IMG/VR virus record: IMGVR_UViG_2675903366_000018
DNA from: a virus
Taxonomy: Duplodnaviria > Heunggongvirae > Uroviricota > Caudoviricetes
Length of the DNA stretch: 15,292 nt
Strand: one strand, 5' to 3'
Below, piece after piece: positions 201 through 12,159 of this stretch (positions are counted from its first letter, which is position 1; each line of letters starts with the position of its first letter). The notes beneath the pieces were generated by a model. That model worked only from the letters and a program-made list of their open reading frames with translations. It searched no databases and was not told where the DNA came from. The translations under genes and the position numbers were made by a program.

Positions 201-231
201 CCACGAACAATATCGAACAACCACGAACAAA
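201..231. repeat. Three direct 10-bp repeats (CCACGAACAA / TATCGAACAA / CCACGAACAA); near-identical second copy at 8429-8460
   Basis: Read directly from sequence: heptamer CGAACAA recurs three times at exactly 10-bp spacing; about 26 of 28 bases match the array upstream of the capsid gene. Confidence 0.8.
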
Positions 232-293
232 GATCAACACGCTTTAATCGTTATCGTTTTCCGGCTATCCGTTATCAAGCTGGTTGATGTGGT

Positions 294-325
294 GCCACTT
301 TTCCACCAATGGTGGAAAAGCCCAC
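294..325. repeat. 32-bp element GCCACTTTTCCACCAATGGTGGAAAAGCCCAC with internal palindrome (9-10 bp arms); exact second copy at 1005-1036
   Basis: Exact 32/32 match between 294-325 and 1005-1036; TTTTCCACCA / TGGTGGAAAA are reverse complements around a central A. Confidence 0.85.
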
Positions 326-4602: not shown

Positions 4603-4898
4603 CAGTACACCCCCACATCACGATAAACCGACCAGAGCGCGGAAATCGTCAGGGGAATTTCTTTTGTATCGGTATCGCCAAGCGTTGTCCGGTACTCGTA
4701 CAGTTGCGAGATGTACATCAGGCAACCAATTTTTATTGCAGGGGTAAATTCCAGGCCGTCATCAAAACGCCTGCCAATATGCTTCTGGCATACCTCCAGC
4801 GCCGCACTTATGTATGCCTGAATCAGTGTGTCTTCTGTGTTACCATCTATGCGGCAGTGAAGTTTGGCCTCTTCCAGGGTTATTTTTTCTGCTGTCAT
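4602..4898 (-). CDS. Phage head-tail connector protein (gp6-like)
   Basis: 98 aa; N-terminus ITLEEAKLHCRIDGNTEDTLIQ is typical of gp6-like connector proteins; ATGA overlaps at both ends. Confidence 0.7.
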   Translation of the reverse strand: MTAEKITLEEAKLHCRIDGNTEDTLIQAYISAALEVCQKHIGRRFDDGLEFTPAIKIGCLMYISQLYEYRTTLGDTDTKEIPLTISALWSVYRDVGVY

Positions 4899-7069: not shown

Positions 7070-8239
7070 CTAGCCAGCTTTCATTTCCAGAATTTTGATG
7101 GCGTTTGAATCCACCACACCACCGCCCAGATATTTATCCGTGTGGACCTTGTAGAATCCGGGTTCAGTAATGTTGTCCGGTCGGGTGCGAATCCCTGTTA
7201 CATGATCAACGATGAAATAACCACGACTGAAATCGCCAACCGCCAGCGGTGCTTTTCCTGCGCCGATGTCCGGCATGGACTCCAGGCAGTAAACAGGACG
7301 ACCAAGCAACATATCCGGCGCACCTTCTTTAAGGCTGTCGCGCCAGATATAATCGCCGTTCTCATTTTTCAGCTTCTGTAGTGTCCCTGCCGTGCCCGAG
7401 TTCATCACCCAGACGGCATTTTTGCGGTATTTCGCTTTCAGCCTGTAGAGAATGTCGATCAGTTCGTCCGCTGTAATGGCGGTTCCACTTGCCGCTATCA
7501 TTTTTTCAATGGTGCCAAAAGCGCGGGTTTTGTCACTGGTCGCTGCACGGGTGTAAGCCATGAAGCCTTTCGGCTTGCCGTTACCGTCGCCATTAACAAA
7601 ATCATCCTCTTCGGTGCTGGCGAACGTGTCGGCAATTTCGGAGGATAACCAGCCCAGAATATCCACCTCTGAAAAATCCAGAATTTCCTGCGTGGTTTTC
7701 GGGTAGGCGTAGATCGGATTCAGCTTGATGGTTACGCGTTCAATTTTCGGGGTGTTGGTTTCGCTGCGCGCGCTGCCTTCTGTGCCTCTTCCTACAGTTG
7801 CGCCGCCAGTGGAAACCAGTTTCTGAAACTCATTTGATTTTGCGGTCTTCACGGTCGCGATCACGCGCATAACACTGTCATCCTGTAGCTGGCGCATGAC
7901 TTCGCGATCAAGCTCAGGAATTACGGTATATCCGCCATCCCTGCCGCTGTCAGTGCTGGTGGATAGTGATCGCACATCTCCGGTTACGATGTAGTTACGC
8001 AATTCATCAGATGATAATTTCCGGATGCCCGTTCCTGGCTTGCTGCGTTCTTCATCAGCCACAGACTCGAGGCGGGAAATTTCTGTGCCGAGGGAATCGG
8101 CTTTTGCACGCAGTTCATCAAACTGTTTGCCCTCGTCATCGTTCAGGCTACGGTTTTCACTGTCGGCTTTTTCCAGCAGGGATCGCATCTGGTTTTTCAG
8201 GGCGTTTTTTTGCTGGCGGAGTTCGATTAATTTCTTCAT
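7070..8239 (-). CDS. Major capsid protein, HK97 fold, with N-terminal coiled-coil (scaffold/delta-like) region
   Basis: 389 aa; the first ~100 residues are heptad-like and rich in E/K/R/L, followed by a capsid-like domain; ATG at 8237-8239. Followed directly by protease and portal genes. Confidence 0.85.
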   Translation of the reverse strand: MKKLIELRQQKNALKNQMRSLLEKADSENRSLNDDEGKQFDELRAKADSLGTEISRLESVADEERSKPGTGIRKLSSDELRNYIVTGDVRSLSTSTDSGRDGGYTVIPELDREVMRQLQDDSVMRVIATVKTAKSNEFQKLVSTGGATVGRGTEGSARSETNTPKIERVTIKLNPIYAYPKTTQEILDFSEVDILGWLSSEIADTFASTEEDDFVNGDGNGKPKGFMAYTRAATSDKTRAFGTIEKMIAASGTAITADELIDILYRLKAKYRKNAVWVMNSGTAGTLQKLKNENGDYIWRDSLKEGAPDMLLGRPVYCLESMPDIGAGKAPLAVGDFSRGYFIVDHVTGIRTRPDNITEPGFYKVHTDKYLGGGVVDSNAIKILEMKAG

Positions 8240-8428
8240 GAAGGTTTTCTCGTATTGGTTAAGATTCAGGACGTGAAACCAACACGGAGGGAGCGCCGCC
8301 CGACACTCTCGGCATCTCGCAGATCAACCCGGCATCGCGCAGGGGTCAGGCGGCATTGTGGCGGCTCACGTCTGAGTGCCACACGCCAACATATACATAA
8401 AAATCAGTATGTAAACATCAGCCAGAAT

Positions 8429-8460
8429 CACCGAACAATCTGGAACAACCACGAACAAAT
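8429..8460. promoter_or_regulatory. CGAACAA direct-repeat array (3 copies, 10-bp phase) ~190-220 bp upstream of the capsid gene; putative regulator binding site for the head/packaging operon
   Basis: CACCGAACAATCTGGAACAACCACGAACAAAT; near-identical to 201-231. Lies in a 275-bp non-coding region upstream of the capsid ATG, flanked by A-tract repeats ACCTGAAAAAAA x2 at 8471-8497. Confidence 0.4.
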
Positions 8461-8513
8461 AATTTACAAAACCTGAAAAAAAGACCTGAAAAAAAATCCA
8501 GGCCTTTATCGCT

Positions 8514-8762
8514 TTATTGTTTCACTGGATCCCGCATTCTGCGTCTTATTTTCCACAGATATTCGATCATCGCTTCCACCTGCTCACGGTTGGTTGCGAA
8601 AATTTCCCCGGTCAGTGAGCTGCGCAGAAAATCATGATGATCCACAACAAACAACGCATCGGAAGAAAGCAGACGGCGATATTTTTTTGCTGTCGTGGTT
8701 TCCAGATCATCAAAACCATGAAACTTTTTATGTTGCTGAACTTCTTCAAATGTCACAGGCAT
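8514..8762 (-). CDS. Hypothetical protein (82 aa)
   Basis: ATG at 8760-8762 preceded by a perfect AGGAGG; the ORF-track start at 8780 is GTG and lacks an RBS. No recognisable family by eye. Confidence 0.5.
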   Translation of the reverse strand: MPVTFEEVQQHKKFHGFDDLETTTAKKYRRLLSSDALFVVDHHDFLRSSLTGEIFATNREQVEAMIEYLWKIRRRMRDPVKQ

Positions 8763-8794
8763 GTTTCCTCCTGCTACCACGATACCAGAAACAG

Positions 8795-9091
8795 TTAATA
8801 ACCGTTATCAATTATCCCTTTTTTTTTCGGGTAGTTCCTGAACATCTCACCGCCAGGTTTCTGTAAGCCCATCCCGGTATGTGTGCGGTTTATGGCCTCT
8901 TTCAGTATTCCGAAATTATCCGGCATGACTGGTGGGCGCGCTGCCTTACGGATACATTCCTCGCGACGCTTTGCCACCTGTTCGCGCTCCTTGTCAGTGC
9001 TCACCAGCCACATAACATCAGCCCAACGTGCCGCCGCTCTCCGGTACAGCCCTTTAGCCTCCAGTTCTTCCGCTTTGCTGTCTTTAATCAT
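8795..9091 (-). CDS. Small transcriptional regulator, PerC/ANR-like (tentative)
   Basis: 98 aa from ATG 9089-9091 (GAGG 6 nt upstream); N-terminal motif AEELEAKGLYRRAAARWADVM resembles PerC/ANR-family small regulators found in enterobacterial prophages. From memory only. Confidence 0.4.
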   Translation of the reverse strand: MIKDSKAEELEAKGLYRRAAARWADVMWLVSTDKEREQVAKRREECIRKAARPPVMPDNFGILKEAINRTHTGMGLQKPGGEMFRNYPKKKGIIDNGY

Positions 9092-9106
9092 GCTGTACCT
9101 CACTGC

Positions 9107-9532: not shown

Positions 9533-9595
9533 GCTTTCTGCTCTCCGGTTTTAACGTTGATAGTTACGCTTGTTTAAACCCTTACTGTGAAATTC

Positions 9596-9722
9596 TGCGG
9601 GTTATAATCGCACTTTTGCGGGTTATAACTGCCGTTTTGCGGGTTACGTGCGGGTTATTGATTTCCTTTTTATTCATACAGTTAATGCACTTATACACAG
9701 GATAACCCGCATAACCCGCAAC
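9596..9722. repeat. Putative replication origin: 4 direct TGCGGGTTAT iterons (starts 9596, 9617, 9638, 9649), 40-bp AT-rich spacer, 2 inverted ATAACCCGC copies (9702, 9711)
   Basis: Read directly from sequence; 21-bp spacing of the first three iterons; ends 20 bp before the replication gene's stop codon (9743-9745), the usual place for the ori in PICI/SaPI-type satellites. Confidence 0.6.
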
Positions 9723-9742
9723 TTTTCACCTCACACAGGGGG

Positions 9743-11875
9743 TTAATCTTCTGCCTCAGGCTGGAACATCAGCACGTAAAAAACATGCTGCTTCCCCCCA
9801 ATTTTGCCGAGCGCCTTTTTCTTGTAACGGCGATCGTTACCCGCTTCCAGCATTCCGGCAGCACTCAACGCGCGGGCAAAGTGAGACGGATTAAATCCCT
9901 GTGCTATCTCACCCTCAAACACATGCGGGAACGTGTAAAAACGGAACTCGTCATCTTCGTTTCTGATACTCCCCTTTCTGTATCCGGCAAGCTCTTTAAT
10001 CGGTAAATCACGCTCGTCAGAGTTGGGCCAAGGAAGGTATCTGCTGAATCCGAACGACGCTAAAAAAGCCTCTGCCTGTTCAACCATCTGTTTAAACTCC
10101 CTGTTCCCCGTGCCGAACTCCTTCACCCAGGCATTAAAATTATGCTGAATGGCATCGCGGCATTCCTGCTCATCCCAGCCAGTAACATGACCGGAAAGTA
10201 CAAGCGCGGCCTCCAGTATGGCGAATCGTTCCCCCACACGGTGAACCTGTTCGCCGTAGCTCTCCGGTATCAGGTTGCGCCACCGCTCGCGACATGCCCT
10301 TACCGCGTCCTTTGCCTCCTGCTGGTGTTCTGCCAGCCATTTAACCCACTCACGACCTGCCGCCCCGTGATTTTCTGTCCAGGCATCTTTTAACGCGTCT
10401 GCGTGCGCCTTTCCGGTGCTGTATTCGTGAAACTGCGAGGCCTTTTCCATCGGCACGTTAAGCAGACGGACAAGCTGCCCCGCTTTAATTTTTATCCCTT
10501 CCGTTTTGAGGAATGTTTCAACGTCCATTTCTCCGGTGCTGATTGCCACCGTGCGCCAGTGTTTTATCTCCCTGTTGCCGCCGTCCTTCGCCCCCTGTAA
10601 TTTCCCCGAACCGTTAAACAGCGTATAGGCTGACGTGGACACCTCCCGCGCGTTTCCGGCCTGGCCTATTTCATCCAGGGGTAACAGCCCGTCATTATGT
10701 GCTTCGGCCTCGTTGGCGATACCTAACGCCGTTCCGTACCAGGTCAGCCGTTGCGCGTCCGGCTCTCCCCATAAACTGGATGCGATGTTCTGTGTGGTGG
10801 TTTTCCCTGCTGATGACTGTTCGAAAAGATGTACCCCGAAGCCGTCAGCACCCACCAGCCCGATTAATGGTGCTGATAACGATACCGCCACACCCAGCAT
10901 CATGGACGGATTACCACCAGCCAACCGCGCAACGGTATCGCGCCAGCCCTCCGCCGTTCCTGCCTCGGAATAACCATTAACAGCGGCAGTTTTTCCGGTA
11001 AACAGGACTGGCTTTTCGCAATCACCAATGACCGAACCGTCCGGCATGATGTACGCGCCAAAATGCCAGCCCGTTGTTGTGCTTAACTGCCATTCCTCAT
11101 GGTTTCCGCTTAACTGCATCCAGTCAGCCAGGATAGCCCTGTATTTACCGTTGGTTGTCACATTCAGTCCGTGGTCTTTCAGCAGCCGCCAGCCGTCACG
11201 GTCGCCAATGCCCCCACACGGGATCGCCATTGTGATGACTTCATGGTTTGCTGGTTTTTTCCAGCGCATCACGCGGTAATGCTCTTTGCCGATTGTCCCC
11301 GTTCCCAGTAGTTCAAGCGGGGAACATAACCACGTCTCAGGCCGGATAATTTCGCCTGACTGCTTATCCACTTTTGGCGTTACCCAGAAAACACCATCGG
11401 CACGGCTTTCAACGCGGGGCTTTAATTCATCATCACCCGGGCTTGTGGTGGTTTTTTTCTTTACCGGAAGCTTAATTACCAGATCTGCAGAAAGATTCTG
11501 ACGCTCAACGTTCAGATAGCGCCGCCAGTTCTCACATTTCTGACCGTGCATTCCTTCAGGGTAAAAATTCGCATCCTGAATATCTGCCGCCGCCAGCTTC
11601 TGACCGATCTTTTTGGTCTCCACTAAATCCAGTTCTCCGGCCTGGTACAGCCTTACGCGTTTTTTCCCATCCGGAACAATTTTCAGCGCATCAAGTTCGG
11701 CAAGCTGATTTGGCCCAAGCCACACAGGCGGCACATCATCGCCAGATGCGGGGCCGTCCTGCTCCTGCCACTGTTTTGCATGTGCCCACGCATCACTACC
11801 CGCGAAAATAATTACCTCTGTGTCTTTGTGTTTTATTCCGCGTGGTTGTTTTTTTACGTTCGGTGCCAGTTTCAT
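9743..11875 (-). CDS. Replication initiator, primase/helicase-type (Pri-Rep-like), with central P-loop NTPase
   Basis: 710 aa; Walker A GVHLFEQSSAGKTTT and Walker B GLLPLDEIG in the central region; resembles DUF927/primase-associated replication proteins of satellites; ATG at 11873-11875 overlaps the upstream ORF's stop (ATGA). Confidence 0.75.
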   Translation of the reverse strand: MKLAPNVKKQPRGIKHKDTEVIIFAGSDAWAHAKQWQEQDGPASGDDVPPVWLGPNQLAELDALKIVPDGKKRVRLYQAGELDLVETKKIGQKLAAADIQDANFYPEGMHGQKCENWRRYLNVERQNLSADLVIKLPVKKKTTTSPGDDELKPRVESRADGVFWVTPKVDKQSGEIIRPETWLCSPLELLGTGTIGKEHYRVMRWKKPANHEVITMAIPCGGIGDRDGWRLLKDHGLNVTTNGKYRAILADWMQLSGNHEEWQLSTTTGWHFGAYIMPDGSVIGDCEKPVLFTGKTAAVNGYSEAGTAEGWRDTVARLAGGNPSMMLGVAVSLSAPLIGLVGADGFGVHLFEQSSAGKTTTQNIASSLWGEPDAQRLTWYGTALGIANEAEAHNDGLLPLDEIGQAGNAREVSTSAYTLFNGSGKLQGAKDGGNREIKHWRTVAISTGEMDVETFLKTEGIKIKAGQLVRLLNVPMEKASQFHEYSTGKAHADALKDAWTENHGAAGREWVKWLAEHQQEAKDAVRACRERWRNLIPESYGEQVHRVGERFAILEAALVLSGHVTGWDEQECRDAIQHNFNAWVKEFGTGNREFKQMVEQAEAFLASFGFSRYLPWPNSDERDLPIKELAGYRKGSIRNEDDEFRFYTFPHVFEGEIAQGFNPSHFARALSAAGMLEAGNDRRYKKKALGKIGGKQHVFYVLMFQPEAED

Positions 11876-12159
11876 TTCTTACCCCCTGCGACCAGCATTT
11901 CACGGATTTTGCGGATATAGCTTGCTGCACGTTTCTGATTTACGGCTTTACGATGGCCCACCAGCGTGAAATCACGCCGGAACTGATAAACAGGCATCAC
12001 GCAGTCATATTCGTAGCCATCACGGCGGTAAGTGATGCGCCGTTCTGCCACGCCTTTAATCGTTACCATGCCGCCATATTTATCGCGGTAAATATCGCCG
12101 TTCATAAATTCAGGACGAGCGGGGCCGCTGGCGGTAAAGCCAGAATTTTTATTTTTCAT
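11872..12159 (-). CDS. Hypothetical protein (95 aa), translationally coupled to the replication gene
   Basis: ATG at 12157-12159; stop overlaps the pri-rep start; basic, non-repetitive composition. Confidence 0.5.
   Translation of the reverse strand: MKNKNSGFTASGPARPEFMNGDIYRDKYGGMVTIKGVAERRITYRRDGYEYDCVMPVYQFRRDFTLVGHRKAVNQKRAASYIRKIREMLVAGGKK

What the first reader, a model, noticed from the sequence alone, without database searches (positions are those of the whole stretch)
8514..9091. PerC/ANR-like regulator and an unknown 82-aa protein between ssb and the head operon
PerC/ANR-family proteins are small regulators that can rewire host or phage transcription. Its position just upstream of the capsid-operon control region makes it a candidate activator of the head genes or an interferer with helper gene expression; the adjacent 82-aa protein with a perfect AGGAGG RBS is unassigned.
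Basis: inference. Interest (0 to 1): 0.4.

Follow-up and report, generated by a model that had tools for sequence, protein, structure and literature searches.

The report
PchE-like regulator plus orphan satellite protein
The segment holds two real small genes of a capsid-forming phage satellite: a known type of PerC/PchE regulator that is optional cargo, and an uncharacterised 82-residue protein found only in such satellites; neither looks like the switch for the capsid genes.

Summary
On the minus strand, perC (9091-8795, 98 aa) matches Pfam PerC over its full length (E 1.6e-35). An 82-aa ORF (8762-8514) has an AGGAGG ribosome-binding site. The ANR label fails (12.9 bits against a cut-off of 32).

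The window is a capsid-forming PICI of the EcCIEDL933/OI-51 type. That island has the same ssb-PerC-orf82-capsid order, and its PerC is the published PchE, 61% identical to this one.

Both genes end the early operon and are followed by an intrinsic terminator.

- **PerC** is optional: present in 8 of 32 related islands, replaced by ProQ/FinO in three, absent in most.
- **orf82** is a real, constrained gene (dN/dS 0-0.27; AlphaFold pLDDT 92). It occurs in 26 of 32 islands and in none of 50,697 phage genomes. It has no Pfam, PDB or BFVD relative.

The capsid operon has its own control module, conserved whether or not PerC and orf82 are present. It comprises an invariant box, 10-nt-phased TTGTTC repeats, a sigma70-like promoter and a covarying leader RNA. 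The same TTGTTC arrays sit at both att arms and in the int-alpA spacer. This points to AlpA (or integrase), not PerC, as the activator.

Ordinary for PerC; modestly interesting for orf82.

The parts
8795..9091 (-). perC: a 98-aa PerC-family (PchE-like, group 3) small regulator
   Evidence: PF06069 E 1.6e-35 over the full length. phrog_994 E 4e-42. 61% identical over 88 aa to the PerC of the O157:H7 OI-51/EcCIEDL933-type island. RefSeq annotates near-identical copies as 'PerC family transcriptional regulator'.
9092..9106 (-). ssb-perC spacer holding a GAGG Shine-Dalgarno sequence 6 nt before the ATG
   Evidence: Read from the sequence. The 15-nt gap leaves no room for a separate promoter.
8514..8762 (-). 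orf82: an 82-aa protein restricted to satellites (PHROG 1957), helix-helix-three strands-helix, function not established
8767..8772 (-). AGGAGG ribosome-binding site of orf82, 4-nt spacer
   Evidence: Read from the sequence.
8476..8507 (-). Intrinsic terminator ending the early (ssb-perC-orf82) transcription unit
   Evidence: Hairpin AAAGGCCUGGA/UUCAGGUCUUU followed by a U run; dG -17.1 kcal/mol, z -4.1. The homologous hairpin in L001 has compensating changes (CCCGG/CCGGG). The simple pattern scan did not flag it.
8433..8469 (-). Context, not part of the two genes: invariant box TTGTAAATTATTTGT (8455-8469) overlapping three TTGTTC repeats phased at 10 nt (8433-8458), upstream of the capsid promoter
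   Evidence: The box lies 204-252 nt upstream of the capsid ATG in all 32 loci. The TTGTTC arrays recur at the att arms and the int-alpA spacer.
8388..8415 (-). Context: sigma70-like capsid-operon promoter TTTACA-16-TATGTT
   Evidence: The single match is not above chance on its own; its weight comes from conservation across genera.
8240..8383 (-). Context: structured 5' leader of the capsid mRNA (P0 8357-8383, P2 8295-8354, and an RBS-proximal helix)
   Evidence: 13 of 24 pairs have compensatory changes; 93.9% of cells are paired against 83% in shuffles (0/500) and 30-47% when partners are slid. An alternative long-range helix is also kept. No Rfam match.

Best explanation
The window is a capsid-forming phage-inducible chromosomal island (cf-PICI).

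Shown from sequence and comparison:
- perC and orf82 are the last two cistrons of the island's early (replication) transcription unit, in the order pri/rep - ori - ssb - perC - orf82.
- That unit ends at an intrinsic terminator at 8476-8507.
- perC is a PchE-like member of the PerC family and occupies an exchangeable accessory slot. In sister islands the slot holds a ProQ/FinO gene or nothing.
- orf82 is a constrained small protein restricted to satellites. It always occupies the last position of the early unit, in satellites that carry capsid genes.

Inferred from what is published for the family:
- perC acts in trans as a small modulator of H-NS-type silencing complexes on host or other horizontally acquired promoters. 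PchE affects curli and flagella. Pch displaces H-NS at LEE1.
- perC is not the dedicated switch of the capsid operon.

Inference, least certain step:
- orf82 is a non-essential modulator made together with the replication proteins. It probably works by binding a protein or nucleic-acid partner during the early-to-late transition.
- It is not an obligatory activator of the capsid promoter.

Inferred from the repeat pattern:
- The capsid operon is a separate unit with its own conserved promoter and leader.
- It is most likely switched on by the protein that also binds the att arms, which is AlpA or, less likely, integrase.
For: Island identity and gene order.

PerC:
- Family match.
- 61% identity to the PerC of the O157:H7 roxA/phoQ island. 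That island is OI-51/CP-933C, whose PerC homologue is PchE (PMC3378721).
- Tight spacing within the operon: 15 and 32 nt.
- Terminator after orf82. Terminators also follow the orf82 homologue in L010.
- Slot variability: PerC in 8 of 32 loci, ProQ/FinO in 3, neither in most.

Capsid control module:
- It is invariant regardless of what sits upstream.
- TTGTTC-N4-TTGTTC arrays number 6-7 per complete island against 0.25 expected. All fall at attL, attR, the int-alpA spacer and the capsid promoter. The window has 9 against 1.9 expected.

orf82.

Literature:
- Pch relieves H-NS/StpA/Hha/YdgT silencing (PMC4764244).
- PchE represses csgD/curli and raises flagellar expression, and does not activate LEE (PMC6265319, PMC7369912).
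- PICIs commonly carry PerC alleles (PMC6092414).
- An alpA mutation abolishes EcCIEDL933 induction and transfer, and the island does not depress its helper (bioRxiv 10.1101/2022.09.08.507074).
Against: - There is no experiment on this PerC allele, and 39% divergence from PchE could change its targets.
- The capsid promoter region is AT-rich (GC 0.38-0.41). It could be H-NS bound, so an auxiliary anti-silencing effect of PerC on it is not excluded.
- Co-transcription of ssb-perC-orf82 is inferred from spacing, not shown.
- For orf82 there is no positive evidence for any particular partner. Its fixed position just upstream of the late module is also what a late-gene regulator would show.
- The sample of 32 loci is partly biased: L002-L009 were retrieved with orf82 itself. 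In the 22 loci retrieved by the box pattern alone, orf82 is present in 16 and PerC in 4.
- Assigning the TTGTTC repeats to AlpA rather than to the integrase arm-binding domain is an inference.
Confidence: 0.55

Rival explanations
1. PerC is the activator, or anti-silencer, of the capsid-operon promoter immediately downstream.
For: - The gene lies about 300 nt upstream of the promoter.
- PerC/Pch proteins activate promoters by displacing H-NS (PMC4764244).
- The promoter region is AT-rich.
- In L014 and L078, PerC is the gene directly upstream of the box.
Against: - PerC is absent from 24 of 32 islands that have the same box, repeats, promoter and leader.
- It is replaced by an unrelated ProQ/FinO gene in the same slot.
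- It is found in a PICI without recognisable capsid genes and in lambdoid phages.
- The upstream repeats match sites at the att arms, not anything specific to PerC.
Confidence: 0.12
2. orf82 is the satellite's late-gene regulator. It is made last from the early operon and then promotes capsid-operon expression. It could do this by read-through of its own terminator, or by binding the structured leader and switching between its alternative helices.
For: - It is invariably the last early gene, directly before the terminator and the late module, in two different capsid-module types.
- It is restricted to satellites that carry capsid genes.
- The leader has mutually exclusive, covarying helices that call for a trans-acting factor or a kinetic switch.
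- One relative is fused to a CxxC...CxxC segment.
Against: - Six of 32 islands with the same leader lack it.
- L010 keeps orf82 but has a different downstream module without the box or leader.
- The nearly identical PEC148 island has orf82 frameshifted.
- The structural similarities are all below significance.
- The protein is near neutral, not strongly basic.
Confidence: 0.2
3. One or both proteins act on the helper phage by interfering with its gene expression, packaging or assembly. SaPI Pti/Ppi and PICI Rpp are precedents.
For: Small satellite-specific proteins often target helper proteins. orf82 has no phage homologue. Both genes would be expressed on induction.
Against: - EcCIEDL933 carries homologues of both genes. 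It did not reduce the titre or plating of helpers HK106 and HK446 (bioRxiv 10.1101/2022.09.08.507074).
- Neither protein matches any defence family.
- cf-PICIs have their own terminase and capsid, so they do not need to redirect helper packaging.
Confidence: 0.1
4. orf82 is a morphogenetic accessory for satellite capsid assembly or head completion, not a regulator.
For: It co-occurs only with capsid-encoding satellites. It is adjacent to the morphogenesis module.
Against: - It is transcribed with the replication genes and separated from the capsid operon by a terminator, and often by opposite-strand cargo.
- The same orf82 allele is combined with capsid alleles only 68% identical to each other.
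- It is absent from six otherwise complete islands.
Confidence: 0.1

Closest known systems
PchE, the group-3 PerC homologue of EHEC O157:H7 O-island 51 / CP-933C (the cf-PICI EcCIEDL933)
   Same: - Same Pfam family.
- 61% identity over 88 aa.
- Same position in the same kind of island: ssb-PerC-orf82-capsid (PMC3378721).
   Different: - 39% sequence divergence and a different C-terminal tail.
- The PchE phenotypes (csgD/curli repression, flagellar up-regulation, no LEE activation; PMC6265319, PMC7369912) have not been tested for this allele.
PerC of the EPEC pEAF plasmid and PchA/B/C of EHEC lambdoid prophages
   Same: PF06069 family. Small size and the conserved N-terminal E-x-L-E-x-K-G-x-Y-R-R-A-A-x-R-W motif. 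The published mechanism is relief of H-NS/StpA/Hha/YdgT silencing (PMC4764244).
   Different: - Those are carried on a plasmid or on lambdoid prophages and activate LEE1.
- The PICI-borne alleles of EcCIEDL933 and EcCICFT073 were reported not to activate LEE1 (as cited in PMC11773190, PMC6092414).
- Phage homologues match only residues 6-60 at about 42-45% identity.
EcCIMP1_025, the PerC-family gene of the PICI EcCIMP1
   Same: A PerC-family gene in the same part of a Gram-negative PICI (PMC11773190).
   Different: It represses LEE1 in Citrobacter rodentium. It is reported to be about 40% identical to the EcCIEDL933 and EcCICFT073 alleles. Its island has no capsid module.
ANR (AraC negative regulator) family, for example Aar
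   Same: Weak similarity of residues 6-52 to the 54-position ANR profile. One 55%-identical relative is labelled ANR by NCBI (P0098).
   Different: The score of 12.9 bits is far below the 32-bit cut-off. The protein has 98 aa, and from my own knowledge ANR proteins are about 60-70 aa. It is not a member by the test run here.
PHROG 1957 and the 74-aa hypothetical protein of EcCIEDL933-type islands (WP_001132080), for orf82
   Same: Same family: PHROG E 1.6e-36; 43% identity. Same position in the island.
   Different: No member has a described function. There is no Pfam or NCBIfam model.
Late-gene regulators encoded at the end of phage early operons (lambda Q, staphylococcal RinA). Positional analogy only, recalled from general knowledge.
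   Same: The gene is last in the early unit, directly upstream of the packaging and morphogenesis operon.
   Different: There is no sequence or fold similarity. orf82 is dispensable in a fifth of the related islands.

Membership tests
PerC family (Pfam PF06069) | Profile match above the gathering score over most of the profile | tested here: met
   121.6 bits against a cut-off of 22.6, E 1.6e-35, profile positions 1-89 of 90.
PerC family (Pfam PF06069) | Small protein of about 90 aa with the conserved N-terminal KG-x-YRRAA-x-RW motif | tested here: met
   98 aa. The motif reads EELEAKGLYRRAAARW and aligns with the O157:H7 island PerC and with 120 homologues.
PerC family (Pfam PF06069) | Activates or modulates H-NS-silenced promoters (LEE1/ler for PerC and PchABC) | not testable with these tools
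   This needs reporter assays. The literature says the PICI-borne alleles do not activate LEE1 (PMC11773190, PMC6265319).
ANR family (NCBIfam NF033650) | Profile match at or above the curated cut-off of 32 bits | tested here: not met
   12.9 bits, E 0.073.
ANR family (NCBIfam NF033650) | Binds and antagonises AraC-family activators | not testable with these tools
Capsid-forming PICI (EcCIEDL933 type), for the island that carries the two genes | int, alpA and pri/rep with ori, together with a full own capsid and packaging module (capsid, protease, portal, adaptors, HNH, TerS, TerL). No tail or lysis genes. Size 10-18 kb. | tested here: met
   The same order and 62-99% protein identity in E. coli islands, including the O157:H7 one.
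PHROG 1957 (orf82 family) | Full-length profile match | tested here: met
   E 1.6e-36, positions 1-81 of 82. My own HMM built from alignment A1 finds it in 26 of 32 loci.
Winged-helix / excisionase-type DNA binders (considered for orf82) | Recognisable winged-helix fold | tested here: not met
Known anti-phage defence proteins (PADLOC) | Match to any PADLOC model | tested here: not met
   No hit for either protein at E <= 0.1.

The most novel reading that the evidence does not exclude
orf82 founds a satellite-only class of small regulators that couples the end of the early operon to capsid production. It could do this by letting RNA polymerase read through its own terminator. Alternatively it could bind the covarying capsid-mRNA leader and flip it between its two mutually exclusive helices. 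Together with the invariant box and the AlpA-type repeats, this would define a previously undescribed late-switch module of capsid-forming PICIs.
Probability: 0.15. Interest if true: 0.6.

Novelty: new member of a known kind. Interest (0 to 1): 0.3.

Why it matters
**PerC.** The result is mostly a correction. It is a PchE-type accessory regulator already known from PICIs. It may matter for the behaviour of the host (curli, motility, virulence islands) rather than for the satellite's own capsid genes.

**orf82.** This is a compact, well-folded, satellite-restricted family with no described function. It marks capsid-forming satellites from Escherichia to Gilliamella, so a knockout in EcCIEDL933 would be a cheap and informative experiment.

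**By-product of the analysis.** The conserved capsid control module, and a four-site TTGTTC pattern linking excision sites to the late promoter, give a concrete and testable model. The model says how these satellites time capsid production.

Tried and rejected
**PerC**
- Sequence search against solved structures gave only a chance-level hit.

**orf82**
- Sequence search against solved structures gave nothing.
- The single-sequence AlphaFold model was poor (pLDDT 48), so it was redone with the family alignment.
- Pfam scans of 32 family members gave only scattered chance hits such as TCAD9, DUF7002 and DHH.
- The apparent six-repeat relative P0171 is a low-complexity artefact.
- The PADLOC scan was negative.
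- The first genome scan, with the full alignment, failed for lack of a conserved stretch and was repeated with a tighter alignment.

**Control region**
- Rfam searches of the window and of 8200-8560 found nothing.
- The 15-mer box is common by chance in IMG/VR, so hits were kept only where tblastn confirmed cf-PICI genes.
- A sigma54 promoter reading of TGGCAC in the leader was rejected. The GC spacing does not fit, and L005 and L038 change the GG while keeping the hairpin.

**Literature and cargo**
- I could not map the 'hypothetical gene 1792' of the cf-PICI paper onto a gene. By position it is more likely the small ORF between HNH and terS, so orf82 probably remains untested.
- Porter et al. 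2005 is not held.
- The cargo genes between orf82 and the box in related islands have no Pfam or PADLOC assignment.

Full report
**Observation**

The stated interval contains two minus-strand ORFs exactly as described.

- perC runs from the ATG at 9091 to the TAA at 8795 (98 aa). GAGG lies 6 nt upstream of the ATG. The start is only 15 nt after the ssb stop.
- orf82 runs from 8762 to 8514 (82 aa). AGGAGG sits at 8772-8767 with a 4-nt spacer, 32 nt after the perC stop.
- perC matches Pfam PerC (PF06069) over the whole profile: E 1.6e-35, 121.6 bits against a cut-off of 22.6.
- The ANR profile scores only 12.9 bits against a cut-off of 32. 'PerC' is right. 'ANR-like' is at most a distant resemblance.
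- orf82 has no Pfam or NCBIfam family but matches PHROG 1957, of unknown function, at E 1.6e-36.

**What the window is**

All genes but one lie on the minus strand. In order of transcription they are:

- integrase and AlpA;
- the single plus-strand gene, ylcI/ynfO;
- an Icd-like gene and a DUF4222 gene;
- a DUF927 primase/helicase;
- an iteron origin with TGCGGGTTAT repeats at 9587-9729;
- ssb, perC and orf82;
- HK97-type capsid, protease, portal, two head-tail adaptors, HNH, TerS and TerL.

This is a capsid-forming PICI of the kind defined on EcCIEDL933 (bioRxiv 10.1101/2022.09.08.507074). Near-identical central blocks occur in E. coli chromosomes, where RefSeq names the genes the same way. 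No phage genome matches the DNA.

The O157:H7 island between roxA and phoQ has the same ssb-PerC-orf82-capsid order. That island is O-island 51 / CP-933C, and its PerC homologue is PchE (PMC3378721). The window's PerC is 61% identical to it, and orf82 is 43% identical to its 74-aa neighbour.

**PerC**

The family is large in Enterobacterales. The N-terminal 50-60 residues also occur in lambdoid phage early regions.

Published facts about the family:
- PchE does not activate LEE, but represses csgD/curli and raises flagellar expression (PMC6265319, PMC7369912).
- PICIs commonly carry PerC alleles, some active on LEE and some not (PMC6092414).
- The EcCIMP1 allele represses LEE1 (PMC11773190).

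So a PerC gene in a PICI is already known.

I collected 32 loci with this type of capsid gene and its upstream region. They came from species-representative genomes, from IMG/VR and from E. coli genomes. An HMM finds PerC in only 8 of them.

- In three E. coli islands, plus a fourth locus (L037) whose capsid gene is truncated, the same slot holds a ProQ/FinO gene instead.
- In most non-E. coli islands the slot is empty.
- A PICI with no recognisable capsid or terminase genes carries ProQ/FinO followed by PerC.

PerC is therefore an exchangeable accessory gene, not a core part of capsid control.

**orf82**

The word-indexed search found only close relatives. The exhaustive search found 49 cluster representatives down to about 30% identity.

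- The alignment shows a conserved core: Y28, D41-H-H, L46-R47, S-G-E53, A56-T57, E60-Q61, I66-E67-x-L69.
- Close E. coli copies give dN/dS of 0-0.27.
- With the alignment, AlphaFold2 gives pLDDT 92.4 and a helix-helix-strand-strand-strand-helix fold.
- The only sequence lead is a 37-residue profile match to a wing-like segment of N.BspD6I (E 6e-4).
- There is no homologue in 50,697 phage genomes and no defence-family match.

In every locus where context is available, the gene is the last one of the early unit, directly before the morphogenesis module. This holds whatever the replication module is (DUF927, RepA helicase, or P4-alpha-like primase). It holds in Serratia, Gilliamella, Phytobacter, Leclercia, Enterobacter, Erwinia and Escherichia.

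It is also kept in L010. That island sits at the same att site as OI-51, but its late module is lambda-like: capsid, decoration protein and TerS.

Counts and exceptions:
- It is present in 26 of 32 loci, and in 16 of the 22 loci retrieved without using orf82 as bait.
- Four of the six islands that lack it carry an unrelated acidic 111-aa protein in its place.
- The almost identical PEC148 island has it frameshifted.

**What lies between orf82 and the capsid gene**

Directly after orf82 there is a strong hairpin followed by a U run (8476-8507; dG -17.1 kcal/mol, z -4.1). L001 has compensating changes in the same hairpin, and L010 has clear terminators at the equivalent place.

In L002, L004, L005 and L006, one to three low-GC genes of unknown function follow on the opposite strand. 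L021 and the related L060, L072 and L132 also carry opposite-strand genes here. In L067 and L104 a gap of about 550 bp at the same place suggests a similar insertion.

The capsid operon must therefore have its own promoter. Aligning the regions upstream of the capsid gene reveals a module conserved in all 32 loci:

- an invariant box TTGTAAATTATTTGT, 204-252 nt before the ATG (window 8455-8469);
- three TTGTTC-like repeats phased at 10 nt (8433-8458);
- a sigma70-like promoter TTTACA-16-TATGTT (8415-8388);
- a leader of about 145 nt.

The leader has two hairpins and an RBS-proximal helix.
- 13 of 24 pairs show compensatory changes.
- 93.9% of cells are paired, against 83% in shuffles (0/500) and 30-47% with slid partners.
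- An alternative long-range helix, GACGUGA with UCACGUC, is also kept. It shares a covarying column with the first hairpin.
- Rfam has no match.

The module is the same whether PerC, ProQ/FinO, orf82 or none of them lies upstream.

**Who switches on the capsid operon**

The pattern TTGTTC-N4-TTGTTC occurs 9 times in the window at up to two mismatches, against 1.9 expected (0 of 200 shuffles reach 9). The exact copies lie at the capsid promoter and at 205-230 near the left end.

In two complete islands with chromosomal flanks, all 6 and 7 matches (0.25 expected) fall in four places: the two att arms, the int-alpA spacer and the capsid promoter. None falls in the flanking chromosome.

That distribution is what one expects of an excisionase-type protein that doubles as a transcription factor. 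It fits AlpA:
- AlpA activates its own promoter (PMC10111431).
- It is required for induction and transfer of EcCIEDL933 (bioRxiv 10.1101/2022.09.08.507074).

The integrase arm-binding domain is the alternative. Assigning the repeats to AlpA is my inference.

**Verdict on the interpretation**

The family assignment stands. The proposed role as activator of the head genes or as an interferer with the helper is not supported:
- the control module does not depend on PerC or orf82;
- its upstream sites belong to a set of sites shared with the att arms;
- EcCIEDL933 carries both homologues and does not depress its helper phages.

My reading has three parts.
- PerC is a PchE-like accessory regulator. 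It probably acts in trans on silenced host or foreign promoters.
- orf82 is a constrained but dispensable, satellite-specific small protein made with the replication proteins. Its partner is unknown.
- The rival I rate highest is that orf82 modulates the early-to-late transition at the terminator or the leader.

**Limits**

- No experiment bears directly on either protein of this island.
- Co-transcription and termination are inferred from spacing and folding.
- The locus sample is partly biased.
- The one 'hypothetical gene 1792' mutated in the cf-PICI paper could not be mapped.

Noticed in passing
window 8240-8469 (minus strand): A conserved capsid-operon control module is present in all 32 related islands. 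It has an invariant box TTGTAAATTATTTGT, a sigma70-like promoter, and a structured leader of about 145 nt. The leader has 13 of 24 covarying pairs and a mutually exclusive alternative helix. There is no Rfam family for it.
   Followed up: yes
window 205-240 and 8433-8458; L133 12940, 20525, 26783, 28178; L134 4686, 12920, 18213, 19589: TTGTTC-N4-TTGTTC arrays phased at 10 nt occur only at both att arms, in the int-alpA spacer and at the capsid promoter. There are 6-7 per island against 0.25 expected. This suggests that one protein, AlpA or integrase, links excision to late transcription.
   Followed up: yes
window about 172-200; L134 about 4650-4675 and about 19555-19580: A doubled motif ACTACACC-N3/4-ACTACACC lies next to the TTGTTC arrays at both island ends. 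It probably marks arm-type recombinase sites. It is analogous to, but different from, the doubled TGTATTGC motif reported for helper-embedded PICIs (PMC10111431).
   Followed up: partly
window 9587-9729: This is the origin of replication between pri/rep and ssb. It has four direct and two inverted copies of the iteron TGCGGGTTAT at 21-nt spacing.
   Followed up: partly
L002 6262-6852, L004 6241-7748, L005 6250-7294, L006 6262-7868, L021 6272-7404: The gap between the orf82 terminator and the box is a cargo hotspot. It holds one to three low-GC genes on the opposite strand with no Pfam or PADLOC assignment. One of them carries DUF3775.
   Followed up: partly
L011 8240-8782, L037, L071, L074; L012 8267-8797: A ProQ/FinO-family gene (RNA chaperone) replaces PerC in the same slot of otherwise near-identical islands, and overlaps orf82 by 10 nt. 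In one PICI, ProQ/FinO and PerC sit side by side.
   Followed up: partly
L010 (O157:H7 strain Gim1-1, roxA/phoQ site) compared with L133: Two O157:H7 strains carry islands at the same att site with the same early region, including PerC and orf82, but different late modules. One is the HK97-type full packaging set. The other is lambda-like (capsid, decoration protein, TerS) and lacks the box and leader.
   Followed up: partly
L001 (E. coli TUM1881) 1-189 and 17069-18097: This cf-PICI is inserted inside the large-terminase gene of a prophage. That is the helper-embedded configuration already described in PMC10111431.
   Followed up: partly
window 11872-12159 (minus strand): The 95-aa DUF4222 protein is probably the RgdR-family regulator of OI-51 (99 aa, PMC3378721). 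The inference rests on size and position. It has N-G-D at residues 20-22, where active RgdR has R-G-D and the inactive ED1a variant has C-G-D.
   Followed up: no
window 298-320, 899-917, 1009-1031: The 23-nt palindrome CTTTTCCACCAATGGTGGAAAAG occurs twice, with a third degenerate copy. It lies in the ORF-poor 1.5 kb between the last packaging gene and the island end. Its function is unknown.
   Followed up: no
window 8682-8688 and 8819-8827: There are homopolymer runs inside orf82 (A7 on the coding strand) and at the 3' end of perC (A9). Relatives differ there by frameshifts: PerC has variable C-termini, and orf82 is frameshifted in PEC148 and scrambled in P0010. These could be sequencing errors or slippage.
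   Followed up: partly
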